The notes: generated by a model from the letters alone, not told the origin. A stretch of DNA of 64,000 bases from Clostridium sp. 'White wine YQ' (GCF_028728205.1 NZ_JAQYUU010000001.1:421318-485317), one strand, 5' to 3'. Counted from the first letter of the stretch, positions 23,609 to 39,282 are shown. Made by a program: numbers and translations.

Positions 23609-23820
23609 AGGTTTCTCCTTTCAGAATTAATAAATTAAATATATTTTATATCATTTTCGGGTTATATAATAGTAAAATAAGAAAAAAAGAGAACAATATC
23701 TTTAATGATAGTAGTATTGTCAGGTGGAATAGAAAGTAAAAAAATATATTAAAGGAACTAAAACTAATGATATAATTAATAGATATAATAGATATCTAAG
23801 CACATATGGAGGTAAAACGG

Positions 23821-24378
23821 ATGGTTGATAAAATTAAAATACAAGATGCAGTAAGGATGATTTTAGAGGCTATTGGAGAAGATCCAGATAGAGAAGGTCT
23901 TAAGGATACTCCACTCAGAATAAGCAAAATGTATGAAGAGATATTTTCAGGTATTGGAGAAACGGCTGAAAAATATTTAGATAGAACTTTTACTGCTGAG
24001 AGAGATGATTTAGTAATAGAGAAGGATATTACATATTATTCCATGTGTGAACATCACTTAGTTCCATTCTTTGGCAAGGTACATATAGCATATATTCCAA
24101 ATGGAAAAGTTGCAGGACTTTCAAAGCTTGCTAGAACTGTAGAGGTTTATGCTAAAAAACCACAATTGCAAGAAAGACTAACTGCTGAAATCGCAGATGC
24201 CATGATGGAATATTTAAAACCAAAAGGCGTGATGGTTATTATAGAAGGGGAACATATGTGTATGACCATGAGAGGTGTTAAAAAGCCTGGGACCAAGACA
24301 GTTACTACTTCTTATAGAGGTGATTTTGAAGAAAATGTTGACCTTAGAAGAGAGGTAAGAGAGCTGATTAATGGATAG
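23821..24378 (+). CDS. folE: GTP cyclohydrolase I
   Basis: Has the CEHHLVPF catalytic motif. GGAGGT RBS supports the ATG at 23821; the track start at 23806 lies within the RBS. Confidence 0.9.
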
Positions 24379-24847
24379 AGTAAATGAAATCTTGAATAGC
24401 AGAGAATATAGAGCTCTATTAGATAAAATTGAGCTGTTAGAAAAGGATAGACTATACTGCAAACATAATCTTGAGCATTTTTTGAATATGGCAAGGATAT
24501 GTTACATAATTAATTTAGAAAGAAATCTTGGATTTTCAAAAGAAATAATTTATATTATTGGACTTCTCCATGATATAGGAAGAGGAGAACAATATGAAAA
24601 AGGAACTCCTCATAATGAAGCTTCATATGAAATAGCTAAAAGTTTCTTAGATAGAATTAACTTTTCATTGGAAGAAAAAGAGCTTATTAAAGAAGGTATA
24701 TTAGGGCATAGAAGAATAGAGAAAACTTCTCTTATAGCTAGTCTTATATATGAAGGGGATAAACTATCTAGAGAATGTTATAATTGTAATGCTACTCTTG
24801 GATGCAATTGGGATGATAGTAAGAAGAATTTAGAAATAAAGTACTAA
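24371..24847 (+). CDS. HD-domain phosphohydrolase embedded in the folate operon
   Basis: H...HD...D signature (LLHDIG, GHRR); overlaps folE by 8 nt and is followed 13 nt later by folP. Confidence 0.7.
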
Positions 24848-24859
24848 AGGGGCGATAAA

Positions 24860-25672
24860 GTGAAAATAGGTAATAAAGAATTTGATTTAGGGAAAAGGAC
24901 ATATATTATGGGTATACTCAATGTTACTCCAGATTCTTTTTCTGATGGTGGAAAATATAATAATTTAGAACAAGCCTTAAAGCAAGGAGAAAAGTTAATA
25001 GCTGAAGGTGCTGATATTATTGATATAGGAGGGGAATCTACTAGGCCAGGTGCTATGTATGTAACTGCAGAGGAAGAAATAAATAGAGTAGTTCCTATAA
25101 TAAAAGCATTAAAAGAAAAACATGATATTATTATATCAATTGATACTTATAAAGCAGAAGTTGCAGAAGCAGCAGTTAAAGCAGGAGCAGACTTAATAAA
25201 TGATGTTTGGGGCTTTAAAAAAGATAAGGATATGGCAATTGTGGCTGCAAAGTATGGAGTTCAGTGTTGCCTTATGCATAATAAGGACAATAAGGAATAC
25301 ACTGACGTAATTGAAGATATGAAGAAGGAACTTCAAGAATCGGTTGAAATTGCATTAAAAGCAGGAGTTAAAAAAGAAAATATTATTTTAGATCCAGGAA
25401 TAGGCTTTGCAAAAACATTAGAAAACAATATTGAGGTTATGGATAGATTAGAGGAATTACTAACACTAGGTTATCCAATGCTTTTAGCTACTTCAAGAAA
25501 ATCTATGATAGGACTAACTCTAGATCTTCCACCAGAGGAAAGAGTGGAGGGTACTGTAGCTACAACTGTAGTTGGAATAATGAAGGGTTACGATTTTGTG
25601 AGAGTTCATGATGTTAAGGAAAATAAAAGAGCTGCACAAATGACTGATGCTATAGTTAGGAGAAATAAATAG
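24860..25672 (+). CDS. folP: dihydropteroate synthase
   Basis: TYIMGILNVTPDSFSDGG N-terminal pterin-binding block; GTG start with a G-rich RBS. Confidence 0.9.
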   Translation: MKIGNKEFDLGKRTYIMGILNVTPDSFSDGGKYNNLEQALKQGEKLIAEGADIIDIGGESTRPGAMYVTAEEEINRVVPIIKALKEKHDIIISIDTYKAEVAEAAVKAGADLINDVWGFKKDKDMAIVAAKYGVQCCLMHNKDNKEYTDVIEDMKKELQESVEIALKAGVKKENIILDPGIGFAKTLENNIEVMDRLEELLTLGYPMLLATSRKSMIGLTLDLPPEERVEGTVATTVVGIMKGYDFVRVHDVKENKRAAQMTDAIVRRNK

Positions 25673-25676
25673 TATT

Positions 25677-26498
25677 ATGGATAAATTATATGTAAGAGAT
25701 TTAGAGGTATTTGCCTTCCATGGTGTGTTTGAGGAAGAGAAAAAATTAGGTCAAAAGTTTTTAATATCCTTAGAACTTTCTTTAGATTTAAAAACTCCAG
25801 GAAGAACTGGTGACTTAACTGCTTCAGTACATTATGGAGAATTATCACAAAGGGTTGAGCAGGAATTTAATAAAATAAGCTATGATTTAATTGAAACAGC
25901 CTGCAATAAAATTAGTGAATTTGTGCTTATAAATTATCCTTTAGTTAAGGAAATAAAGGTATCTGTTAAGAAGCCTTGGGCACCTATACATAGAAACTTA
26001 GATACAGTTGAAGTTGAAATCACTAGAAAAAGAAGTAGGGCAGTGCTATCATTAGGTTCAAACCTAGGCGATAAAGAAGAAAATTTAAAAAAAGCTATAG
26101 AAATAATAGATGAGCATGATTTATGCAAAGTATTAAAGACTTCAAGTTTTATAAAGACAGAGCCTTGGGGTTACACAGAGCAAGAAGAATTTTTAAATTG
26201 TGCAATAGAAATTGAAACCATGCTATCACCTAGTGAATTAATGGATTTCTTATTACATATAGAACAAAAATTAAAAAGAGAGAGAGTAATTAAATGGGGA
26301 CCTAGAACACTAGATATAGACATAATTTTTATGGATGAAATAGTATCAAATGATGAACATGTAATATTACCTCATCCAAGAATGCATCAAAGATTATTTG
26401 TACTAGAACCAGTAAATGAAATATGTCCATTTTATTTACACCCATTAATGAACAAAAGAGTATTTGAACTTTTAGAAATAGCAAAAGAAACTCCTTAG
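25677..26498 (+). CDS. bifunctional dihydroneopterin aldolase / HPPK
   Basis: N-terminal FolB block (LYVRDLEVFAFHGVFEEEKKLGQKF) and C-terminal FolK block (SLGSNLGDKEENL, WGPRTLDIDI). Confidence 0.85.
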   Translation: MDKLYVRDLEVFAFHGVFEEEKKLGQKFLISLELSLDLKTPGRTGDLTASVHYGELSQRVEQEFNKISYDLIETACNKISEFVLINYPLVKEIKVSVKKPWAPIHRNLDTVEVEITRKRSRAVLSLGSNLGDKEENLKKAIEIIDEHDLCKVLKTSSFIKTEPWGYTEQEEFLNCAIEIETMLSPSELMDFLLHIEQKLKRERVIKWGPRTLDIDIIFMDEIVSNDEHVILPHPRMHQRLFVLEPVNEICPFYLHPLMNKRVFELLEIAKETP

Positions 26499-29880: not shown

Positions 29881-30885
29881 ATGGATATAATTTGTACAGT
29901 AGCACCAAATACATTAGAAAAAACAACATTAAATAAATTAAGAAATTCAGGTGGAAATATAATCAGGTTAAATTTCTCCCACTTTAGTGAAGATTTCTTT
30001 AGGGAAATAGTAAAGAAAATAAGAAAAGAGGGTATTAGTGTCAACATTTTAGGTGATATACAAGGAAGTAAAATAAGGGTGTGGAGTGAAATGCAAAGGC
30101 CAATTAGACTTTTGCATAAGGAACTAATTAAAATATGTTCCTATGAAAAATATAAGGAATTAATATCATTAGAGGAAAAACTAATTCCTCTTAATTTGAA
30201 TATAGATAATTTTAAGAAGATCACTTCTAGGGAAATAACATTTCAAGATGGTGCAATAAATCTTCAAATAGTAAATAAAAATGAAGATTTTTTGATTGGA
30301 AAGGTTAAAAGAGGAGGAATTGTTAGGGCAGAAAAAAGCTGTAATATTAAAGGGTATATAAGAGAGGAGAAAAGTATCAGTACTAAAGATAAACGAGATA
30401 TTGATTTTTGTTTAGAAGAAGAGCTGAATATAATTGCCTTATCTTATATAGAAAGCAAAGAGGGGCTTTTAAAATATAAAAACTATATCTTAAATAAGTC
30501 AAAAGAAATGGGAAAAGTCCTTCCTAAATTATATGCTAAAATAGAAACTTTTAAGGGTGTTGAAAATATAAAAAGTATATCAGAAGAATGTGACGGCATT
30601 ATTATCGCAAGAGGAGATTTGGTGCCAGAGGTTGGGATAAACAATATACCTATTATACAAAGAATGATATTTAAAAGATGTAAATCCAGGGAATTGATAG
30701 TAGCTACTCATTTATTAGATTCTTTAGTTAAAGGGAAAGAAGTATCTCCAGCAGAAGTGGATGATATTTATTGGTTTATTAAAAATGGAGCAACAGGATT
30801 TTTGTTAGCAAAAGAAACAACAATAACTGATGATCCATCAAAAGCAGTAAATATAATAAATAAGTTAATTAATAAATATTCATAA
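29881..30885 (+). CDS. pyruvate-kinase-like barrel-domain protein lacking the C-terminal regulatory domain
   Basis: IICTVAPNT...IRLNFSHF...ILGDIQGSKIRVW and ...IIIARGDLVPEVG...ATHLLDSL...GATGFLLAKETT resemble the PK A-domain blocks, but the protein is only 334 aa. Confidence 0.6.
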   Translation: MDIICTVAPNTLEKTTLNKLRNSGGNIIRLNFSHFSEDFFREIVKKIRKEGISVNILGDIQGSKIRVWSEMQRPIRLLHKELIKICSYEKYKELISLEEKLIPLNLNIDNFKKITSREITFQDGAINLQIVNKNEDFLIGKVKRGGIVRAEKSCNIKGYIREEKSISTKDKRDIDFCLEEELNIIALSYIESKEGLLKYKNYILNKSKEMGKVLPKLYAKIETFKGVENIKSISEECDGIIIARGDLVPEVGINNIPIIQRMIFKRCKSRELIVATHLLDSLVKGKEVSPAEVDDIYWFIKNGATGFLLAKETTITDDPSKAVNIINKLINKYS

Positions 30886-30949: not shown

Positions 30950-33052
30950 ATGACAGACATAATTTTTTGGGTAGTTGGATGCATTGTAGGTATTTTTTTA
31001 TTATGGTTTCTAATATTTAGGGTATTAGGGCTTACAATAATCAAAAGTGATGAAGTAGGAATAGTAGAAATTTGGCTTGGTAGAAAAAAAGGACAGAAGG
31101 ATAATAACTCAGTTATTTCTCTTAATGGAGAAGCTGGATATCAGCCAGATTTATTAAAACCAGGAATTCATCTAAGATCAGTATTTAAATACAAAATTCA
31201 TAGACAAAAGCTTATTACTATTCCACAAGGACAAATTGGGTATGTTTTTGCTCGTGACGGAGAAGCTTTAAAGCCATCTCAATCTCTGGGAAAAATAATA
31301 GATTCATGCAATAATTTTCAAAGTGTTAGAGCATTCTTAGAAAATGGTGGTCAAAAAGGACCTCAAAGAGGAATACTAAGAGAAGGTACTTATGCTTTTA
31401 ATACAGCACAATTCATAATTATAACTGAAAGTCAGATTTATTATTTACCTATTGGTAATGATGATAAAGCTTCAGTTATGGGAATGGCAAATGATATATG
31501 GAATAAGAGTAATCCAAATCCATATGCAAATGGGTTTAGACCAATAGTTATTGAAGGTGAAAGTGATCTAGTAGGAGTTGTAACTACAAAAGACGGTCCA
31601 TCTTTACCAGAAGGAGATATAATAGCCCCAGTTGTAGGAAATGACAAAAACTTAAAAGAAATCTATCACAATAATTTTCAGGATATTGAAAAGTTCTTAG
31701 CAGCTGGAGGATATAGAGGTAGACAACTTCAAGTAATTACAGATGGTAAGTACTATATAAATAGACTGTTTGCATCAGTAGAATTAGTTAAAAAGACAAT
31801 AATTGATGTGGGATATGTTGGAGTAGTTAACTCCTTTACAGGTGCAAAAGGAAAAGACCAGTCTGATGTAACTTATACTCATGGAGAATTGGTTGCAAGT
31901 AGTGAAAGAGGTGTATGGAAAGAACCGTTAATGGCTGGTAAATATGCTTTGAATCCATATGCAATCAAGGTATTTCCAGTTCCAACTACAAACTTTATTT
32001 TAAAATGGAATAGTAAAGAGAATGGAAAGTTACAATATGATAGTAATTTAAAGGAAGTAAGCTTAATAACTAAGGATGCCTTTGAACCATTATTACCACT
32101 ATCAGTTGTAGTGCATATAGACTATAAGAAAGCTCCGCTTGTAATTCAAAGATTTGGTGATATTAAAATGCTTGTTGAGCAGACTTTAGATCCACTAATA
32201 GGAACTTATTTTAAAAATATTGGACAGACTAAGACCTTAATTGAGCTAGTTCAAAATAGAACAGAGATACAACTATTAGCCACTGAGGCTATGAAAGAAA
32301 AATTCGAAAAATACAATCTTGAACTTGAAGAGGTATTAGTAGGAACTCCTTCAGGAGAAAAAGATCCTCGTATTGAAGATATGTTAACTCAGTTAAGAGA
32401 TAGACAAATAGCAAGAGAAAAAATAGAAACCTATAAGAGTCAAAAAGATGCAGCAGACATGGAAAAAACTTTAAGAGAAGCAGAAGCTGTAGCTAAGCAA
32501 CAAACCATGAAAACAGAATCTTTAATTAATATTGAAATTCAGGCTAACCAAGGTAAAGCAGAACTTGAAAGATCTATTCAAGAAGCTAAGAAAATAGAAA
32601 CTATAGCAATGGCAAATGCCAATAAAACTAAGTTCGAAGCTGAAGCTCAAGCTGAACTTGAAGCAAGGGTAGGTATAGGTAAAGCTATAGCTATCGAAGA
32701 ACAAGTTAGAGCATACGGTGGACCACAATATCAAGTTACTCAAGATGTAATGGACAAATTCACAAAAGCAATAGCAACATCAGGAATTGATATAGTTCCT
32801 AAGAATGTTATTACTATGGGAAATAGTGCTGAAAATGGACATGTAGATGCTGTTCAAAGCTTGCTAACTGTACTACTAAGCAAAGAAATTGGCGTTGAAT
32901 ATAAACCTAATGAAAATCACAATATTGTAGTGGAAGAAATTAAGAAATCCATTATTGAAACCATAAACTCAAAGGACAAAGACAAAAAGGAAAGTAAAGA
33001 AGTAAGAGAAGAAAGTGAGCAAACTATAACTACAAAAGACATTAAAGAATAA
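30950..33052 (+). CDS. SPFH/band-7 (flotillin-like) membrane protein with a long coiled-coil C-terminus
   Basis: N-terminal TM helix, SPFH-like core, then ~250 aa rich in E/K/A/Q (EAEAQAELEARVGIGKAIAIEEQ). 700 aa. Confidence 0.7.
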   Translation: MTDIIFWVVGCIVGIFLLWFLIFRVLGLTIIKSDEVGIVEIWLGRKKGQKDNNSVISLNGEAGYQPDLLKPGIHLRSVFKYKIHRQKLITIPQGQIGYVFARDGEALKPSQSLGKIIDSCNNFQSVRAFLENGGQKGPQRGILREGTYAFNTAQFIIITESQIYYLPIGNDDKASVMGMANDIWNKSNPNPYANGFRPIVIEGESDLVGVVTTKDGPSLPEGDIIAPVVGNDKNLKEIYHNNFQDIEKFLAAGGYRGRQLQVITDGKYYINRLFASVELVKKTIIDVGYVGVVNSFTGAKGKDQSDVTYTHGELVASSERGVWKEPLMAGKYALNPYAIKVFPVPTTNFILKWNSKENGKLQYDSNLKEVSLITKDAFEPLLPLSVVVHIDYKKAPLVIQRFGDIKMLVEQTLDPLIGTYFKNIGQTKTLIELVQNRTEIQLLATEAMKEKFEKYNLELEEVLVGTPSGEKDPRIEDMLTQLRDRQIAREKIETYKSQKDAADMEKTLREAEAVAKQQTMKTESLINIEIQANQGKAELERSIQEAKKIETIAMANANKTKFEAEAQAELEARVGIGKAIAIEEQVRAYGGPQYQVTQDVMDKFTKAIATSGIDIVPKNVITMGNSAENGHVDAVQSLLTVLLSKEIGVEYKPNENHNIVVEEIKKSIIETINSKDKDKKESKEVREESEQTITTKDIKE

Positions 33053-33535: not shown

Positions 33536-33877
33536 ATGAAAATTAGTAAGGATAATGCAGAACACTATATTTGGGGAGGCATATGTGATGGTTGGCATTT
33601 AGTTAAAACTAATGAACTAAGTATTATACATGAGAAGATGCCTTCAAAAACTTCAGAAGTTAGGCATCTTCATCAAAAAGCAAAGCAGTTTTTCTTTGTA
33701 CTGTCCGGACAAGCAACAATAGAACTCAATGAGAAAACTATTTTATTAAATGAGTACGAAGGAATAGAAATATTACCAGGGATTCCTCACCAGATGATGA
33801 ATAATTCAGATTGTGACATAGAATTTGTGGTTGTTTCTACGCCTACAAGTAAAGGTGATAGAATTTTAGTTGAATAG
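33536..33877 (+). CDS. cupin-domain protein
   Basis: 113 aa with a G(X)5HXH(X)n-like block (VRHLHQKA...ILPGIPHQMMN). Confidence 0.55.
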   Translation: MKISKDNAEHYIWGGICDGWHLVKTNELSIIHEKMPSKTSEVRHLHQKAKQFFFVLSGQATIELNEKTILLNEYEGIEILPGIPHQMMNNSDCDIEFVVVSTPTSKGDRILVE

Positions 33878-34003: not shown

Positions 34004-34765
34004 TTAAATTACTCTAATATCCTTAGACTCTAAAACATCTAAAATCTTCTTTTCAGGAAGCTCATCTGTAATGATATTATTTATATCATCTAAAATAGCA
34101 AATCTATATGAACCGTCAAAAATAAACTTAGTATTTTCCATTACTATAAAGGTTTCTTTTGAAGCTTTGATAATAGCTTTTTTAGTGTTACCTTCCTCTA
34201 AATCAAAGTTACTTATGCTGTTATCAAGTACATTAACTCCACAGCTACCTATGAAGGCTTTATCTACTCTATATTTAGAAATATCTAATGAGGCAGCAGA
34301 ACCTACAACCCCTCCAAGAAGTTTGTTATATCTTCCGCCAATGCAAATTAATTCAGTATTAGTATTTTCATTAAAGAGAGTTGAGATCTCTACCATATTT
34401 GTAACTAATGTAACTTTTTTATTTTCTTCAGCTATTAATTTAGCTATCAAAAAATTAATACTGGATATATCTAAAAAAATCATATCCAAGTCATTGATTT
34501 CTTTAAGAGCTTTTCTAGCTATAACTTGTTTTTTATCAGTATTTCTAACAAGCCTAGTTTCAATGCTTGTGCTTTCAGCCTTTTTTCTTTCAAGTATTGC
34601 CCCACCATAAGTTCTCTTCAATTTTCCTTCTTTTTCAAGTCTCTGAAGATCTTTTCTTATCATAGGTTCGGACATGTTAAATTTCGCACTTAAATCTTTA
34701 ACATATACTTTTCCTTGCTCCTCTAATATATTAATAATTGCATTTAATCTTTCTTCTGCAAACAT
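34004..34765 (-). CDS. DeoR-family transcriptional regulator
   Basis: N-terminal DeoR HTH (VKDLSAKFNMSEPMIRKDLQRLEKEG) and a C-terminal DeoR sensor domain; 253 aa. Confidence 0.8.
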   Translation of the reverse strand: MFAEERLNAIINILEEQGKVYVKDLSAKFNMSEPMIRKDLQRLEKEGKLKRTYGGAILERKKAESTSIETRLVRNTDKKQVIARKALKEINDLDMIFLDISSINFLIAKLIAEENKKVTLVTNMVEISTLFNENTNTELICIGGRYNKLLGGVVGSAASLDISKYRVDKAFIGSCGVNVLDNSISNFDLEEGNTKKAIIKASKETFIVMENTKFIFDGSYRFAILDDINNIITDELPEKKILDVLESKDIRVI

Positions 34766-34959
34766 TTAATTCCTCCTTGAGTGATAATGAATGATAAAAT
34801 TTGATAATATACTTATTGTATATTAAATGAAGTTAAAAATAAAGATTATTATAAATAAACCTTATAATAATATATTGACGCAAAAATATTTTAAGAGTAA
34901 AATGATATTGAACAATAACAAGTGATAATGAATGATAATTAGTGAAAGGGTGAGAGAAG

Positions 34960-35859
34960 ATGGAAGCCTTGATTTGCGATATTGAACATTATGCCATACA
35001 TGATGGTCCAGGGATTAGAACAGTGGTTTTCTTAAAAGGTTGTCCTTTAAGGTGCTTGTGGTGTAGTAATCCTGAAACTCAGAGTAGTAAAAATCAATTG
35101 TATTATTCGGATACTAATTGTATTTTATGTGGAAGATGTATAGAAAGTTGTGATGATTTAGCATTAAGTTTAGTAGATGGGAAGATAAAAATAGATCATG
35201 AAAAGTGTACAACCTGCGGCAAATGTATTAAAGCTTGTCCGACTTCATCTCTGAAATTTGTTGCTGAACACATGACAGTTCAGGAGGTTTTTGAAGAGGT
35301 TTACAAAGATGAAGTTTTCTATAGACAATCTTCAGGAGGAATAACAGTTTCTGGGGGAGAAGTACTCATGAATGCTGATTTTGTTATAGAACTACTTACT
35401 AAGTGCAAAGAAAATTATATAAATACTGCCGTTGAGACTTCAGGATATGGAAACGTTGAAAAGTTAAAAGAACTAAGCAAAGTTACAGATACTTTCTTAT
35501 TTGATATAAAGCATACTGATTCACAAATTCATAAAGAGCTAACGGGGGTACCTAATGAAGTTATACTAAATAATCTTAAAGAGCTTTCTAGGCTAAACAA
35601 ACAGATTATTATAAGAATTCCATTAATAACAGGTTTAAATGATGATAAAGAAAACATAGGTAAAACTATTAAAATAGCCAAGGAAAATAATATTAATGAA
35701 ATTCATATTCTTCCTTATCACACCTTAGGAATGGACAAATATAAGAGACTACAGAAGGAATATAAGCTAAAAGATTTAGAAAAAAGAGATTTAAAATATA
35801 TAGAAACTTTAAAGGCTATGGTTGAAGAAGAAAATATAAAATGTATTATAGGGGGATAG
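34960..35859 (+). CDS. glycyl-radical enzyme activating protein (radical SAM)
   Basis: CPLRCLWCSNPE radical-SAM cluster motif plus two ferredoxin-like Cys clusters (CILCGRCIESC, CTTCGKCIKACP). Confidence 0.85.
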   Translation: MEALICDIEHYAIHDGPGIRTVVFLKGCPLRCLWCSNPETQSSKNQLYYSDTNCILCGRCIESCDDLALSLVDGKIKIDHEKCTTCGKCIKACPTSSLKFVAEHMTVQEVFEEVYKDEVFYRQSSGGITVSGGEVLMNADFVIELLTKCKENYINTAVETSGYGNVEKLKELSKVTDTFLFDIKHTDSQIHKELTGVPNEVILNNLKELSRLNKQIIIRIPLITGLNDDKENIGKTIKIAKENNINEIHILPYHTLGMDKYKRLQKEYKLKDLEKRDLKYIETLKAMVEEENIKCIIGG

Positions 35860-35863
35860 AAAA

Positions 35864-38269
35864 ATGAAAAGTTTTGAAATTAAAAGTGAAAGAATTAAAA
35901 AGTTAAGGGAATCTGTTTTATCCCAAACTCCAATGGTGTGCATTGAGCGTGCAAGATATATCACTGAGGCTTATAAAGAAAATGAAGCTCAGCCAATATA
36001 CATTAAAAGGGCTAGAGCAGTAGAAAAAATCTTAAGAAATATGAGCATCTATATTAAAGATGGGGAACTTATAGTAGGTAATCAAGCCTCAGAAGAAAGA
36101 ACTGCACCAATATTTCCAGAGTATGCAGTAGATTGGATGGAGGATGAACTTAATGATAAAGGGAATTTCAATAAGAGAGATGGAGATAACTTTTATCTTC
36201 CAGAGGAACATATAGAAGAACTAAGAGAAATTATAGGTTATTGGAAAGGAAAGACCTTAAAAGATAAGTGTATGGCAGTAATTCCTGAAGAGGTTAAGAA
36301 AGCTTCTGAAATTAAAGTTATACATGGAGAAGGAAATATGACATCTGGGGATGGGCATATAGTACCTGATTTTGAAAAAGCTTTAAAGTTAGGATTGAAT
36401 GGAATTATAAAAGAAGCAGAAGAAAGATTTAATAAAATTGATATAAGTGATGATGATGCATTAAGGGAAATAGCTTTTCTACAATCTATAATTATAATTA
36501 ATAAAAGCATTATAGAATTTGGAGAAAGATATTCAAGGCTTGCATATGAATTAAGTGAAAAAGAGACAGACGAGAAGAAAAAAGAAGAATTAATAAAGAT
36601 ATCAAAAATTTGTAAGAAGGTACCAGGAGATGCTCCAGAAAGTTTTGAAGAAGCTCTTCAAATGATTTGGTTTATTCATTTAGTAATACAAATAGAAAGC
36701 AATGGACACTCTGCATCTCTTGGAAGAGTGGATCAATACTTAAACTCTTATTATATGAAAGATATTAAAGAAGGAATAATCGATAGAGAATATGCCAAAG
36801 AGTTATTACAATGCTTATGGATAAAGCTATATTCAATTCTTAAGATAAGATCAACTTCTCATTCAGGCTATGGGGCAGGATATCCGACTTATCAAAATGT
36901 TACAATTGGAGGAACTAATTCTGACTTTACTGATGCAGTAAATGAATTGAGCTTTTTGATTTTAGAAAGTGTTGGGGAAGCAAAATTAACTCAACCAAAT
37001 CTTTCAGCAAGGGTTCATGCAAATACATCGGAAAGATTTTTAAGAGAATGCGCTGAAGTTATATCCACAGGCTTTGGAATGCCTGCACTTCATAATGATG
37101 ATATAATCATTCCTGCTCTTCTAAACAAAGGTGTATACTACAAAGATGCTTATAACTATACAATGGTAGGTTGTGTTGAAGTAGCTGTTCCAGGAAAATG
37201 GGGCTATAGATGTACAGGAATGACATTCCTTAATTTTATAAAAGCCTTTGAACTTACACTAAATGATGGATTTGATAAAAGAACTGGATATATTCTTAAT
37301 GCAGGAAATGGTTCATTAAAGGATTTTAAAGAATATGAAGATCTTTGGAAAGCTTGGGAGAAGAATATAGAATATTATACAAAATTATCAGTAGTTTCAG
37401 ATAAGGTTGCAGATGTAAATCTATTAGATTATCCAGATATATTCTGCTCTTCATTAATTGATAATTGCATAGAAAGATGTAAAACTATAAAAGAAGGGGG
37501 AGCTGTATATGATATAATTTCAGGGCTTCAAGTTGGACTAGCAAATGCAGCTAATAGTTTTGCAGCTCTTAAGAAATTTGTATATGAGGATAAATTATTT
37601 ACCCTAGAAGAAATAAAAGATGCATTAGATAGCAACTTTGAAGGAGTTAATGGAGAAAGAATAAGAAAAGTATTAGAGGGAGCACCAAAATACGGAAATG
37701 ATAATTCATATGTTGATAATATAGCTGTGGATGTATATGAAACCTATATTAAAGAGATTTCAAAATATAATAATACAAGGTATGGTAAAGGTCCAATAGG
37801 CGGGAATTATGGTTTATCTACATCAGGAATATCTTCTAATGTACCAATGGGATGTGTAACTGGAGCAACCCCTGATGGAAGAAAGGCATGGACTCCAGCT
37901 GCAGAAGGATGTTCACCAGTACAAGGAACAGATACTAAAGGACCAACATCAGTTTTAAAAACTGTATCAAAACTTCCTAATATTCTTATGACTGGCGGTC
38001 AATTATTAAATGTTAGATTTACTCCAAACTTAGTTAATAATGATATTGGATTTGAAAAGTTTATTATGTTTATTAAGAGCTTTATTGCAGTTAAGGGATG
38101 GCATATTCAATTTAATATCATGTCTACAGAAACCTTAAGAAATGCACAAAAGAACCCAGAAGAATATAGAGATATAATAGTTAGAGTTGCGGGATATTGT
38201 GCACAATTTGTAACATTAGATGCTACTACACAAGAAGACATTATAAGCAGAACGGAACAAAGATTTTAA
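35864..38269 (+). CDS. glycyl radical enzyme, dehydratase/lyase clade (Cys-X-Glu active site GCVE), substrate unknown
   Basis: 801 aa; C-terminal glycine-radical fingerprint RVAGYCAQFVTLD; thiyl loop MVGCVEVAVPG. Confidence 0.8.
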   Translation: MKSFEIKSERIKKLRESVLSQTPMVCIERARYITEAYKENEAQPIYIKRARAVEKILRNMSIYIKDGELIVGNQASEERTAPIFPEYAVDWMEDELNDKGNFNKRDGDNFYLPEEHIEELREIIGYWKGKTLKDKCMAVIPEEVKKASEIKVIHGEGNMTSGDGHIVPDFEKALKLGLNGIIKEAEERFNKIDISDDDALREIAFLQSIIIINKSIIEFGERYSRLAYELSEKETDEKKKEELIKISKICKKVPGDAPESFEEALQMIWFIHLVIQIESNGHSASLGRVDQYLNSYYMKDIKEGIIDREYAKELLQCLWIKLYSILKIRSTSHSGYGAGYPTYQNVTIGGTNSDFTDAVNELSFLILESVGEAKLTQPNLSARVHANTSERFLRECAEVISTGFGMPALHNDDIIIPALLNKGVYYKDAYNYTMVGCVEVAVPGKWGYRCTGMTFLNFIKAFELTLNDGFDKRTGYILNAGNGSLKDFKEYEDLWKAWEKNIEYYTKLSVVSDKVADVNLLDYPDIFCSSLIDNCIERCKTIKEGGAVYDIISGLQVGLANAANSFAALKKFVYEDKLFTLEEIKDALDSNFEGVNGERIRKVLEGAPKYGNDNSYVDNIAVDVYETYIKEISKYNNTRYGKGPIGGNYGLSTSGISSNVPMGCVTGATPDGRKAWTPAAEGCSPVQGTDTKGPTSVLKTVSKLPNILMTGGQLLNVRFTPNLVNNDIGFEKFIMFIKSFIAVKGWHIQFNIMSTETLRNAQKNPEEYRDIIVRVAGYCAQFVTLDATTQEDIISRTEQRF

Positions 38270-38276
38270 TAATCTT

Positions 38277-38314
38277 AAAAGCCACTAGAGTAACAATTCT
38301 TTAGTGGCTTTTAT
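38277..38314 (+). terminator. rho-independent terminator
   Basis: AAAAGCCACTAG ... CTAGTGGCTTTT. Confidence 0.65.
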
Positions 38315-38505: not shown

Positions 38506-39282
38506 ATGAAAAAAGTTGTTTTGTTAAGACATGGAGAAAGTGTATGGAATAAAGAAAACAGGTTTACAGGCTGGTCAGATGTGGAGCTTTCAGAGAAAGG
38601 CATTGAAGAAGCTAAGAAGGCAGGAGAAATACTTAGAAAAGAGGGTTATAATTTCGATAAAGGATTTTCTTCAGTACTTAAAAGGTCAATTAAGACTTTA
38701 TGGTACGTATTAGATGAATTAGATTTATTATGGATACCAGTAGAAAGATCTTGGAGATTAAACGAGAGACATTATGGAGCACTTCAAGGGCTTAACAAGG
38801 CAGAAACTGCATTGAAATATGGAGACGAACAAGTCCATAAATGGAGAAGAGACTCAGAAGTATATCCACCTGCTTTATCAAAAGATGACGAAAGATACCC
38901 TGGAAATGAAAAAAAATATAGTGAGTTAAAAGAAGAAGAACTACCACTTACTGAAAATTTAAATGACACTATTAAGAGGGTTATACCTTACTGGAATGAA
39001 GTCATAGCACCAGAAGTTAAAAGTGGCAAGAATATAGTAATAGCAGCTCATGGAAATAGTCTTAGAGCTTTAGTTAAGTATTTGGACAATCTATCAAATG
39101 AAGAGGTTACTAATTTAAATATTCCAACAGGAACTCCTTTGGTTTATGAACTTGATGATGAATTAAAACCAATAAGGCATTATTATCTAGGAGATCCTGA
39201 GGAAATTAGGAAAGCAGAAGAAGCAGTTCAAAAACAAGGGGAAGCTGCAAAGGAAGAGGTAGCTAGTTCCATAAGGGTATAA
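38506..39282 (+). CDS. gpmA: 2,3-bisphosphoglycerate-dependent phosphoglycerate mutase
   Basis: [19 protein letters not shown] catalytic His block; 258 aa. Confidence 0.9.

What the first reader, a model, noticed from the sequence alone, without database searches (positions are those of the whole stretch)
34004..38269. DeoR-regulated glycyl-radical enzyme of the dehydratase/lyase clade with unknown substrate
The GRE has the Cys-X-Glu thiyl loop (GCVE) typical of glycerol/propanediol dehydratase, choline TMA-lyase, hydroxyproline dehydratase and isethionate lyase, not the CC loop of PFL. Its activase carries two extra ferredoxin clusters. The only linked gene is a divergent DeoR regulator; no microcompartment, pyrroline-5-carboxylate reductase, aldehyde dehydrogenase or transporter gene is adjacent. 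The substrate cannot be inferred from context. It may be a sugar-derivative lyase, given the DeoR sensor domain.
Basis: partly seen in the sequence, partly recalled or inferred. Interest (0 to 1): 0.5.

Follow-up and report, generated by a model that had tools for sequence, protein, structure and literature searches.

The report
YbiW-like sugar-phosphate glycyl radical lyase operon
This is a regulator-controlled two-gene operon for an oxygen-sensitive radical enzyme that most likely opens the ring of an anhydro-sugar phosphate so that it can enter glycolysis; it is an uncharacterised relative of an enzyme type described in 2024, not a new kind of system.

Summary
At 34004-38269 a DeoR regulator gene lies divergent to a glycyl-radical activase (299 aa, two extra ferredoxin motifs) and an 801-aa glycyl radical enzyme (GRE) with GCVE and RVAGY loops.

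"Unknown substrate" is out of date. The closest characterised enzyme is E. coli YbiW (46% identity). YbiW is the 1,5-anhydroglucitol-6-phosphate (AG6P) ring-opening C-O lyase of the 2024 "anhydroglycolysis" pathway, not a dehydratase.

- In a neighbour-joining tree the window's clade is sister to the YbiW clade (joint bootstrap 97), excluding PflD and glycerol dehydratase.
- The two clades share 43 signature residues that both of those enzymes lack. Many lie around the catalytic His, Cys and Glu.
- In 22 of 32 relatives of the window's clade a fructose-6-phosphate aldolase gene lies near the GRE, in 17 directly after it. Glucose-type PTS, ROK glucokinase or GldA-type dehydrogenase genes are sometimes nearby.
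- This window lacks the aldolase. A terminator hairpin separates the GRE from gpmA.
- Period-10 repeats (about GATAATAAAT) behind a conserved promoter look like the DeoR operator.

Verdict: a probable AG6P-type lyase and a new member of a known kind. The exact sugar is unproven. Interest is modest.

The parts
34004..34765 (-). DeoR-family repressor gene (253 aa), divergent from the activase-GRE operon
   Evidence: Pfam HTH_DeoR (residues 6-58) and the DeoRC sensor domain (75-235). No NCBIfam equivalog cut-off is met. A DeoR-family gene lies within 7 kb of the GRE in 20 of 32 clade-A loci, with orthologues at 52-94% identity in the same divergent position.
34778..34808 (+). Period-10 direct repeats (GATAATGAAT / GATAAAATTT / GATAATATAC) next to the deoR ribosome-binding site; candidate autoregulatory operator
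   Evidence: TRF reports a period-10 array at 34778-34797. An exact 17-mer, GTGATAATGAATGATAA, occurs at 34781 and again at 34922 and nowhere else in the window. The repeat finder family D1.
34875..34903 (+). Promoter-like site TTGACG-17-TAAAAT for the activase-GRE operon
   Evidence: Consensus scan (such matches are not above chance in this AT-rich region on their own). A TTGAC...ATAAAAT pair sits at the same place in C. paridis, C. intestinale, Haloimpatiens, Propionispora and Pelosinus.
34901..34949 (+). Four tandem 10-bp units (GATATTGAAC AATAACAAGT GATAATGAAT GATAATTAGT) starting at the -10 box; candidate DeoR operator
   Evidence: TRF reports period 10 with 3.9 copies at 34901-34939. In a PWM scan the best three-unit array of each whole locus lies 28-255 bp upstream of the activase start in 22 of 31 clade-A loci, including 15 not used to build the PWM. 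Only one of 15 clade-B loci has a comparably scoring array there.
34960..35859 (+). GRE-activating radical-SAM enzyme (299 aa) with two extra ferredoxin-type 4Cys motifs
   Evidence: TIGR02494 scores 356 bits against a cut-off of 174. Motifs at 28-35, 54-64 and 83-93. 39% identical to E. coli YbiY. The stop codon lies 4 nt before the GRE start.
35864..38269 (+). Glycyl radical enzyme (801 aa), sister clade of YbiW; His165, Cys437, Glu439, Arg449, Gly777
38276..38313 (+). Intrinsic-terminator-like hairpin (15 pairs) 6 nt after the GRE stop codon, followed by a T-containing tail (TACTTTGTAT); ends the operon before gpmA
   Evidence: sequence.

Best explanation
The locus is a DeoR-controlled two-gene operon, activase then GRE, in Clostridium sp. 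'White wine YQ'. The GRE belongs to the YbiW-type group of GRE isomerases. I propose the following mechanism.

1. The activase uses S-adenosylmethionine to put a radical on Gly777. This is inferred from the family.
2. The radical passes to Cys437, which abstracts the C2 hydrogen of a 1,5-anhydro-hexitol 6-phosphate. The most likely substrate is 1,5-anhydroglucitol-6-phosphate (AG6P).
3. Glu439 deprotonates the C2 hydroxyl. The C1-O5 ring bond breaks, probably helped by His165.
4. Hydrogen return from Cys437 gives 1-deoxy-fructose-6-phosphate.
5. An FSA-type aldolase then yields glyceraldehyde-3-phosphate and hydroxyacetone.

Steps 2-5 are carried over from YbiW as summarised in PMC13450708 section 5.7; the His165 role comes from glycerol dehydratase His164 in section 5.6.1.

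Regulation is also inferred. DeoR would bind the period-10 GATAATAAAT-type repeats that overlap the promoter and its own ribosome-binding site, and would be released by a sugar phosphate.

What is shown here: gene content, motifs, tree position, shared pocket signature, aldolase/PTS/kinase/GldA linkage in relatives, the terminator and the repeats. What is inferred: the substrate, the chemistry and the repressor mechanism.
For: - Closest solved and characterised proteins are YbiW (8id7, in complex with AG6P) and its Enterobacter orthologue 6xs4, at 786 bits. Glycerol dehydratase scores 658 and PflD 511. Identities are 46%, 41% and 36%.
- NJ tree of 107 sequences rooted on PflB: the window's clade has bootstrap 100, it joins the YbiW-containing clade with bootstrap 97, and PflD and glycerol dehydratase fall outside.
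- Of 237 columns at least 90% conserved in both clades, 222 carry the same residue.
- 43 positions are at least 95% conserved across both clades and differ from both glycerol dehydratase and PflD. They include EGNxTSGD before His165, VAV after Glu439, W446, R449-C-T-G-M453, the G643-P644 insertion and T653-S654, the position of glycerol dehydratase Tyr640.
- An FSA aldolase gene lies within 7 kb of the GRE in 22 of 32 clade-A loci and directly follows it (16-126 nt) in 17, at 79-82% GRE identity in C. zeae, C. yunnanense and C. ganghwense. It passes NCBIfam NF009299.
- Orenia has GRE-FSA-GldA. Pseudoleptotrichia has a Glc-family PTS EIICBA, GldA, DeoR, FSA, activase, GRE and pgk. A Negativicutes MAG has a PTS that passes the glucose-specific IIBC cut-off. 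A Victivallales locus has a ROK glucokinase.
- Operator-like repeats are conserved upstream of the activase. A terminator follows the GRE.
- Foldseek top hits are 6xs4 and 8id7, TM-score 0.89-0.90.
Against: - Identity to YbiW is only 46%, and the window's clade is sister to the YbiW clade, not nested in it.
- Fifteen columns are fixed differently in the two clades, several in pocket segments: G155/A, V167/A, T331/W, G337/S, T342/L, S652/G and S658/A. The Gly loop reads YCAQF against YSAFF.
- No aldolase, GldA, PTS or kinase gene lies in this 64-kb window. The same is true near the GRE in C. paridis, C. intestinale, Haloimpatiens, Propionispora and Pelosinus.
- A search seeded with the C. zeae aldolase returned no protein named from this strain, C. 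paridis or C. intestinale among the best 120 (all at least 71% identical). That is inconclusive.
- The AG6P contact residues in 8ID7 could not be read with these tools, and the primary paper (10.1021/jacs.4c07718) is not held.
- The AlphaFold model is below pLDDT 50 in the active-site loops.
- Nothing here tests activity.
Confidence: 0.62

Rival explanations
1. Same ring-opening chemistry and the same aldolase-linked pathway, but a different substrate from YbiW. Candidates are 1,5-anhydromannitol-6-phosphate or another anhydro- or deoxy-hexitol phosphate. On this reading the window's clade is a functionally distinct paralogue.
For: The window's clade is a separate, well supported clade (bootstrap 100) at 43-50% identity to YbiW. 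Fifteen positions are fixed differently between the clades, some beside Tyr343 and in the 650-658 segment. Both clades occur in Clostridium species, so the split is not simply species phylogeny. The clades also differ in typical neighbours: ROK kinase in 28 of 47 clade-B loci against 1 of 32 clade-A loci.
Against: PflD, the characterised C2-epimer enzyme, has a very different pocket (ESNASS in place of ESNGHS, no GYRCTGM loop), and the window's protein does not share it. The glucose-type PTS and ROK glucokinase neighbours fit a gluco-configured sugar. E. coli YbiW itself departs from its clade's consensus at some of the positions where the two clades differ, for example Gly332 where that clade mostly has Trp. 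No genome supplied both a clade-A and a clade-B locus among the 80 kept, which is weak evidence against co-existing paralogues.
Confidence: 0.2
2. A B12-independent glycerol or 1,2-diol dehydratase, that is, a classical 1,2-eliminase.
For: 41% identity to C. butyricum glycerol dehydratase. Cys, Glu, the His164 equivalent, ESNGHS and the Tyr339 equivalent are all conserved. Foldseek TM-scores of 0.86-0.88 to glycerol and propanediol dehydratases.
Against: Glycerol dehydratase falls outside the window-plus-YbiW group (bootstrap 97). Its Asp447 and Tyr640 positions are Cys450 and Ser654 here, and the loops carry the YbiW-type insertions. No 1,3-propanediol dehydrogenase, aldehyde dehydrogenase or microcompartment genes occur in the window or in any relative's locus examined. 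The recurrent neighbour is an FSA aldolase, which has no role in diol dehydration.
Confidence: 0.05
3. A GRE with a reaction not yet described. In the lineages that lost the adjacent aldolase (this strain, C. paridis, C. intestinale) it may have been re-purposed, for example to remove toxic AG6P made by the glucose PTS instead of supporting growth.
For: The aldolase is absent near the GRE in at least four separate lineages of the clade, while DeoR, activase and GRE stay intact and conserved. The DeoR effector is unknown.
Against: The protein is 79-82% identical to aldolase-linked orthologues, and every pocket segment examined matches the clade consensus. Unlinked pathway genes are common, and E. 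coli gldA is not linked to ybiW either.
Confidence: 0.1

Closest known systems
E. coli YbiW with activase YbiY: 1,5-anhydroglucitol-6-phosphate C-O lyase, a GRE isomerase (PDB 8ID7, 8YJN; Ma et al., JACS 2024, as summarised in PMC13450708 and PMC12441222)
   Same: It is the best sequence and fold match. The two share the Cys-X-Glu loop, the His loop, ESNGHS, the KWGYRCTGM loop and the RYG(K/R)GP insertion. The two clades are sisters with joint bootstrap 97. An activase gene is adjacent in both. An FSA aldolase is linked in E. coli (fsaA) and in most relatives of the window's clade.
   Different: Identity is only 46% and the window's protein sits in a sister clade. Fifteen conserved positions differ between the clades. 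The gene order here is activase then GRE under a divergent DeoR with tandem-repeat operators, and E. coli has no DeoR gene at ybiW. No aldolase is present in this window.
PflD with activase PflC: 1,5-anhydromannitol-6-phosphate C-O lyase (PDB 8ID0, 8YJO)
   Same: Same reaction class and the same product. It is linked to fsaB, gldA and a PTS in E. coli.
   Different: 36% identity. It falls outside the window-plus-YbiW group. Its pocket segments differ: ESNASS, no GYRCTGM loop and no RYGxGP insertion. It is associated with a fructose-type PTS.
B12-independent glycerol dehydratase of Clostridium butyricum (PDB 1R8W, 1R9D) and 1,2-propanediol dehydratases (5I2G, 9RCO)
   Same: 41% identity. The catalytic Cys, Glu and His164 equivalents, ESNGHS and the Tyr339 equivalent are conserved.
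   Different: Asp447 and Tyr640 are replaced. The loop insertions are of the YbiW type. The genomic context is different.
DeoR/GlpR-family sugar-phosphate repressors
   Same: HTH_DeoR plus the DeoRC sensor domain. Divergent arrangement with tandem direct-repeat candidate operators.
   Different: No NCBIfam equivalog cut-off is reached; the best is GlpR at 155 bits against 300. Effector and binding site are untested.

Membership tests
Glycyl radical enzymes, PFL2/glycerol-dehydratase subfamily (TIGR01774) | PFL-like barrel with a C-terminal RVxG glycyl loop, scoring above the curated cut-off | tested here: met
   897 bits against a cut-off of 678. RVAGY at 774-778. Foldseek TM-score 0.82-0.90 to solved GREs.
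Cys-X-Glu GREs (1,2-eliminases and isomerases) | GCxE thiyl loop instead of the CC loop of PFL | tested here: met
   GCVE at 436-439. It aligns with YbiW Cys441/Glu443 and glycerol dehydratase Cys433/Glu435.
YbiW-type AG6P C-O lyase | Groups with YbiW to the exclusion of every other characterised GRE | tested here: met
   The window-plus-YbiW group has bootstrap 97, with PflD and glycerol dehydratase outside. Only YbiW, PflD, glycerol dehydratase and PflB were in the tree. The other characterised GREs rank lower by phmmer bit score.
YbiW-type AG6P C-O lyase | Orthology: nested within the clade that contains YbiW, or more than 60% identical to it | tested here: not met
   46% identity. It lies in a sister clade (bootstrap 100) to the YbiW-containing clade (bootstrap 87).
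YbiW-type AG6P C-O lyase | Conservation of the residues that contact AG6P in 8ID7 | tested here: inconclusive
   Contact residues could not be read: the primary paper is not held, no coordinates are available to the tools, and the AlphaFold loops score below pLDDT 50. As a proxy, 43 YbiW-group signature positions in the pocket segments are conserved, but 15 conserved positions differ between the clades.
YbiW-type AG6P C-O lyase | Genomic linkage to an FSA-type aldolase (pathway context) | tested here: not met
   None in the 64-kb window. The feature is met in relatives: 22 of 32 clade-A loci.
YbiW-type AG6P C-O lyase | Converts AG6P to 1-deoxy-fructose-6-phosphate | not testable with these tools
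   This needs an anaerobic enzyme assay.
PflD-type AM6P C-O lyase | Clusters with PflD and shares the PflD pocket motifs | tested here: not met
   36% identity. It falls outside. The segments differ. NF007437 scores 619 bits against a cut-off of 1109.
B12-independent glycerol/diol dehydratase | Glycerol dehydratase Asp447 and Tyr640 equivalents, with diol-pathway neighbours | tested here: not met
   The equivalents are Cys450 and Ser654. No dhaT, aldehyde dehydrogenase or microcompartment genes.
HypD, CutC, HpsG/HpfG, indoleacetate and HPA decarboxylases | NCBIfam equivalog cut-off reached | tested here: not met
   All score far below their cut-offs, for example HypD 627 against 1100 and CutC 588 against 1050.
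GRE-activating radical-SAM enzymes (TIGR02494) | CX3CX2C motif, score above the cut-off, gene adjacent to the GRE | tested here: met
   356 bits against 174. Motifs. 4-nt gap to the GRE gene.
DeoR-family regulators | HTH_DeoR plus the DeoRC domain | tested here: met

The most novel reading that the evidence does not exclude
The window's clade (57-100% identical proteins in Clostridium, Negativicutes, Leptotrichiaceae, Orenia and Victivallales) may be a second specificity within the GRE sugar-phosphate isomerases. It would act on an anhydro- or deoxy-sugar phosphate other than AG6P and AM6P. In aldolase-less genomes such as this one it may instead serve to clear a toxic dead-end PTS product. 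Either way it would be controlled by a dedicated DeoR repressor that binds period-10 GATAATAAAT repeats.
Probability: 0.2. Interest if true: 0.5.

Novelty: new member of a known kind. Interest (0 to 1): 0.3.

Why it matters
If the assignment holds, radical "anhydroglycolysis" would extend from enterobacteria to a distinct clade found in soil, fermentation and gut Clostridia, Negativicutes and Fusobacteria. It would also name a likely regulator and operator for the pathway. It gives a testable function for proteins that databases currently label only "glycyl radical protein" or "formate C-acetyltransferase". It does not change the understanding of GRE chemistry.

Tried and rejected
- The primary YbiW/PflD paper (10.1021/jacs.4c07718) is not held. 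The AG6P contact residues could therefore not be taken from it, and I used two reviews instead.
- Further literature searches found no characterised member of the window's clade.
- The AlphaFold2 model built from a 12-sequence alignment has mean pLDDT 73 but is below 50 in all active-site loops, so I rejected it for pocket mapping. Foldseek on it ranks YbiW first, but all GREs score TM 0.82-0.90, so fold alone does not discriminate.
- A search for an FSA aldolase of this strain, seeded with the C. zeae aldolase, returned no hit from this strain, C. paridis or C. intestinale among the best 120. This is inconclusive.
- I considered the cupin (33536-33877) and gpmA (38506-39282) as operon members and rejected both. 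The cupin is convergent with deoR and absent from relatives' loci. gpmA lies beyond a terminator hairpin and recurs only in C. paridis.
- The promoter consensus scan alone is not above chance in this AT-rich region: 29 sites found against 33 expected. The promoter call rests on its conserved position in relatives.


Full report
**Observation.** The window is low-GC DNA (about 30%). Its GRE is 100% identical to a protein of Clostridium sp. 'White wine YQ'. The deoR gene is at 34004-34765 (-), the activase at 34960-35859 (+) and the GRE at 35864-38269 (+). The GRE has GCVE at residues 436-439 and RVAGY at 774-778. The activase has the radical-SAM CX3CX2C motif at 28-35 and two CX2CX2CX3C ferredoxin motifs at 54-64 and 83-93. 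The family models agree: TIGR01774 at 897 bits against a cut-off of 678, TIGR02494 at 356 against 174, and HTH_DeoR plus DeoRC. The neighbours are a cupin, an SPFH protein, a pyruvate-kinase barrel-only ORF, gpmA, a GGDEF/HD-GYP protein and a 5'-nucleotidase. None is a microcompartment, P5C reductase, aldehyde dehydrogenase or transporter gene.

**Closest characterised enzyme.** No NCBIfam equivalog cut-off for HypD, CutC, HpsG/HpfG, PflD or the decarboxylases is reached. Against all PDB sequences the top hits are E. coli YbiW (8id7, 8yjn) and its Enterobacter orthologue 6xs4, at 786 bits. Glycerol dehydratase follows at 658, propanediol dehydratase at 592 and PflD at 511. BLASTP identities are 46% to YbiW, 36% to PflD and 41% to glycerol dehydratase. 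YbiW is no longer of unknown function. It cleaves the C1-O5 ring bond of 1,5-anhydroglucitol-6-phosphate (AG6P) to give 1-deoxy-fructose-6-phosphate. FsaA or FsaB then splits that product into glyceraldehyde-3-phosphate and hydroxyacetone. PflD does the same with the mannitol epimer (PMC13450708 section 5.7; PMC12441222 section 5.1; both summarise Ma et al. 2024, which is not held). This is an isomerisation, not a dehydration.

**Phylogeny.** I collected 80 genomic loci and 120 database homologues. I aligned 107 sequences with YbiW, PflD, glycerol dehydratase and PflB and built a bootstrapped neighbour-joining tree.
- The window's protein lies in a clade with bootstrap 100. I call it clade A. 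Its 36-member core shown in the tree is 57-100% identical to the window protein and comes from Clostridium, Propionispora, Pelosinus, Orenia, Leptotrichiaceae and Victivallales.
- Clade A is sister to clade B (bootstrap 87), which contains YbiW.
- Clades A and B join with bootstrap 97. PflD and glycerol dehydratase fall outside.

The protein is therefore a YbiW-group enzyme, but not a strict orthologue of YbiW.

**Pocket.** Of 237 alignment columns at least 90% conserved within both clades, 222 carry the same residue. Forty-three positions are at least 95% conserved across both clades and differ from both glycerol dehydratase and PflD. Many fall in the segments that carry the catalytic residues:
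- E156-G-N-x-T-S-x-D163, just before His165. His165 is the equivalent of glycerol dehydratase His164, the proposed proton donor to the leaving group (PMC13450708 section 5.6.1).
- V440-A-V442, just after Glu439.
- W446 and R449-C-T-G-M453. This loop replaces glycerol dehydratase His446-Asp447.
- The G643-P644 insertion.
- T653-S654. Ser654 stands where glycerol dehydratase has Tyr640.

Arg449 is a candidate phosphate ligand; that is my inference.

Fifteen conserved columns differ between the clades, several in these same segments (G337/S, T342/L, S652/G, S658/A). E. coli YbiW itself departs from the clade-B consensus at some of them. The reaction type looks conserved. The exact sugar remains open.

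**Comparative context.** The window alone is uninformative, but its relatives are not.
- Clustering of neighbouring ORFs shows an FSA/TalC aldolase within 7 kb of the GRE in 22 of 32 clade-A loci, and 16-126 nt downstream of it in 17.
- These include C. zeae and C. yunnanense (82% GRE identity) and C. ganghwense (79%); C. folliculivorans (81%) has the aldolase 214 nt downstream. The aldolase passes NF009299.
- Orenia has GRE, FSA and a GldA-type dehydrogenase.
- Pseudoleptotrichia has a Glc-family PTS EIICBA, GldA, DeoR, FSA, activase, GRE and pgk.
- A Negativicutes MAG has DeoR, then activase-GRE-FSA, with a PTS close by that passes the glucose-specific IIBC cut-off.
- A Victivallales locus adds a ROK glucokinase.
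- Clade B more often has a ROK kinase between the GRE and the activase (28 of 47 loci) together with rbs-like ABC transporter genes.

Every step of the published pathway therefore recurs beside clade-A GREs: phosphorylating uptake, GRE, aldolase and hydroxyacetone reduction. The uptake genes are of the glucose type.

The aldolase is missing next to the GRE in this strain, C. paridis, C. intestinale, Haloimpatiens, Propionispora/Pelosinus and two further MAGs. That amounts to at least four independent losses or relocations. I could not determine whether this genome carries an aldolase elsewhere.

**Operon and regulation.** A 15-pair hairpin sits 6 nt after the GRE stop codon (38276-38313). gpmA is therefore probably a separate transcription unit. 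The 194-bp deoR-activase spacer holds a TTGACG-17-TAAAAT site (34875-34903). From its -10 box onward run four 10-bp units (34901-34949), and three more units abut the deoR ribosome-binding site (34778-34808). An exact 17-mer occurs once in each block and nowhere else in the window. The TTGAC...ATAAAAT pair followed by (A/G)(A/G)TAATAAAT units recurs in relatives whose DeoR is only 58-68% identical. In a PWM scan, the best three-unit array of each whole 20-kb locus lies 28-255 bp upstream of the activase start in 22 of 31 clade-A loci, 15 of which were not used to build the matrix. Only one of 15 clade-B loci has a comparably scoring array there. I read these repeats as the DeoR operator. Binding and the effector are untested.

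**Verdict.** The best explanation (confidence about 0.6) is a DeoR-repressed activase-GRE operon. Its enzyme ring-opens an anhydro-hexitol 6-phosphate, most likely AG6P made by the glucose PTS, to 1-deoxy-fructose-6-phosphate.

The rivals are:
- the same chemistry on another sugar phosphate (0.2);
- a re-purposed or undescribed reaction (0.1);
- a glycerol or diol dehydratase (0.05).

The finding is a new, uncharacterised member of a recently defined kind. It is useful for annotation and offers a clean experimental target, but it would not surprise a specialist.

Noticed in passing
Window 34960-35859; L006 9201-9977; L001 9166-9963; L092 8174-9001: Activases of the window's clade come in two forms. 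One is 299-300 aa with two ferredoxin motifs (Clostridium, Propionispora, Haloimpatiens, Victivallales). The other is 258-275 aa without them (Orenia, Leptotrichiaceae, a Negativicutes MAG). The partner GREs are 65-70% identical.
   Followed up: partly
Window 38506-39282; L001 12649-13872: Lower-glycolysis genes follow the GRE in two distant lineages: gpmA here and in C. paridis (240 nt downstream, beyond a terminator), and pgk in Pseudoleptotrichia. This may be chance, or a loose link to the glyceraldehyde-3-phosphate produced by the pathway.
   Followed up: partly
L005 14569-18339 (Propionispora sp. 2/2-37): About 2 kb from the clade-A GRE lies a second cluster: DeoR, a NanE-like epimerase, a 523-aa PFL-like protein with no glycyl-radical domain on record, and a 226-aa radical-SAM protein. 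Its function is unknown.
   Followed up: no
L040-L089 (clade B loci), e.g. L046 7612-8574: In the YbiW-containing clade outside enterobacteria, a ROK sugar kinase usually sits between the GRE and the activase (28 of 47 loci), often with rbs-like ABC transporter genes. This suggests an ABC-plus-kinase route to the substrate instead of a PTS.
   Followed up: partly
L011, L012, L013 (C. zeae, C. yunnanense, C. folliculivorans): These loci keep the repeat array upstream of the activase (96-255 bp) but have no DeoR homologue detected in the fetched locus (about 10 kb either side of the GRE). Genes for ILVD/EDD, KDPG aldolase and a PfkB kinase under a GntR regulator lie upstream instead.
   Followed up: no
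Window 29881-30885: A 334-aa ORF matches only the pyruvate-kinase barrel domain, with a weak HpcH/HpaI aldolase hit, and lacks the C-terminal domain.
   Followed up: no
Window 30950-33052: A 700-aa SPFH/Band 7 protein with a long charged, coiled-coil-like C-terminal half.
   Followed up: no
Window 23806-26498: A folate-biosynthesis operon (GTP cyclohydrolase I, dihydropteroate synthase, FolB-HPPK fusion) with an HD-domain protein inserted after folE.
   Followed up: no
L084 (Clostridium sp. Marseille-Q2269): The clade-A GRE reading frame extracted here is only 542 aa although tblastn matches residues 1-799. It may be a frameshifted pseudogene or an assembly error.
   Followed up: no
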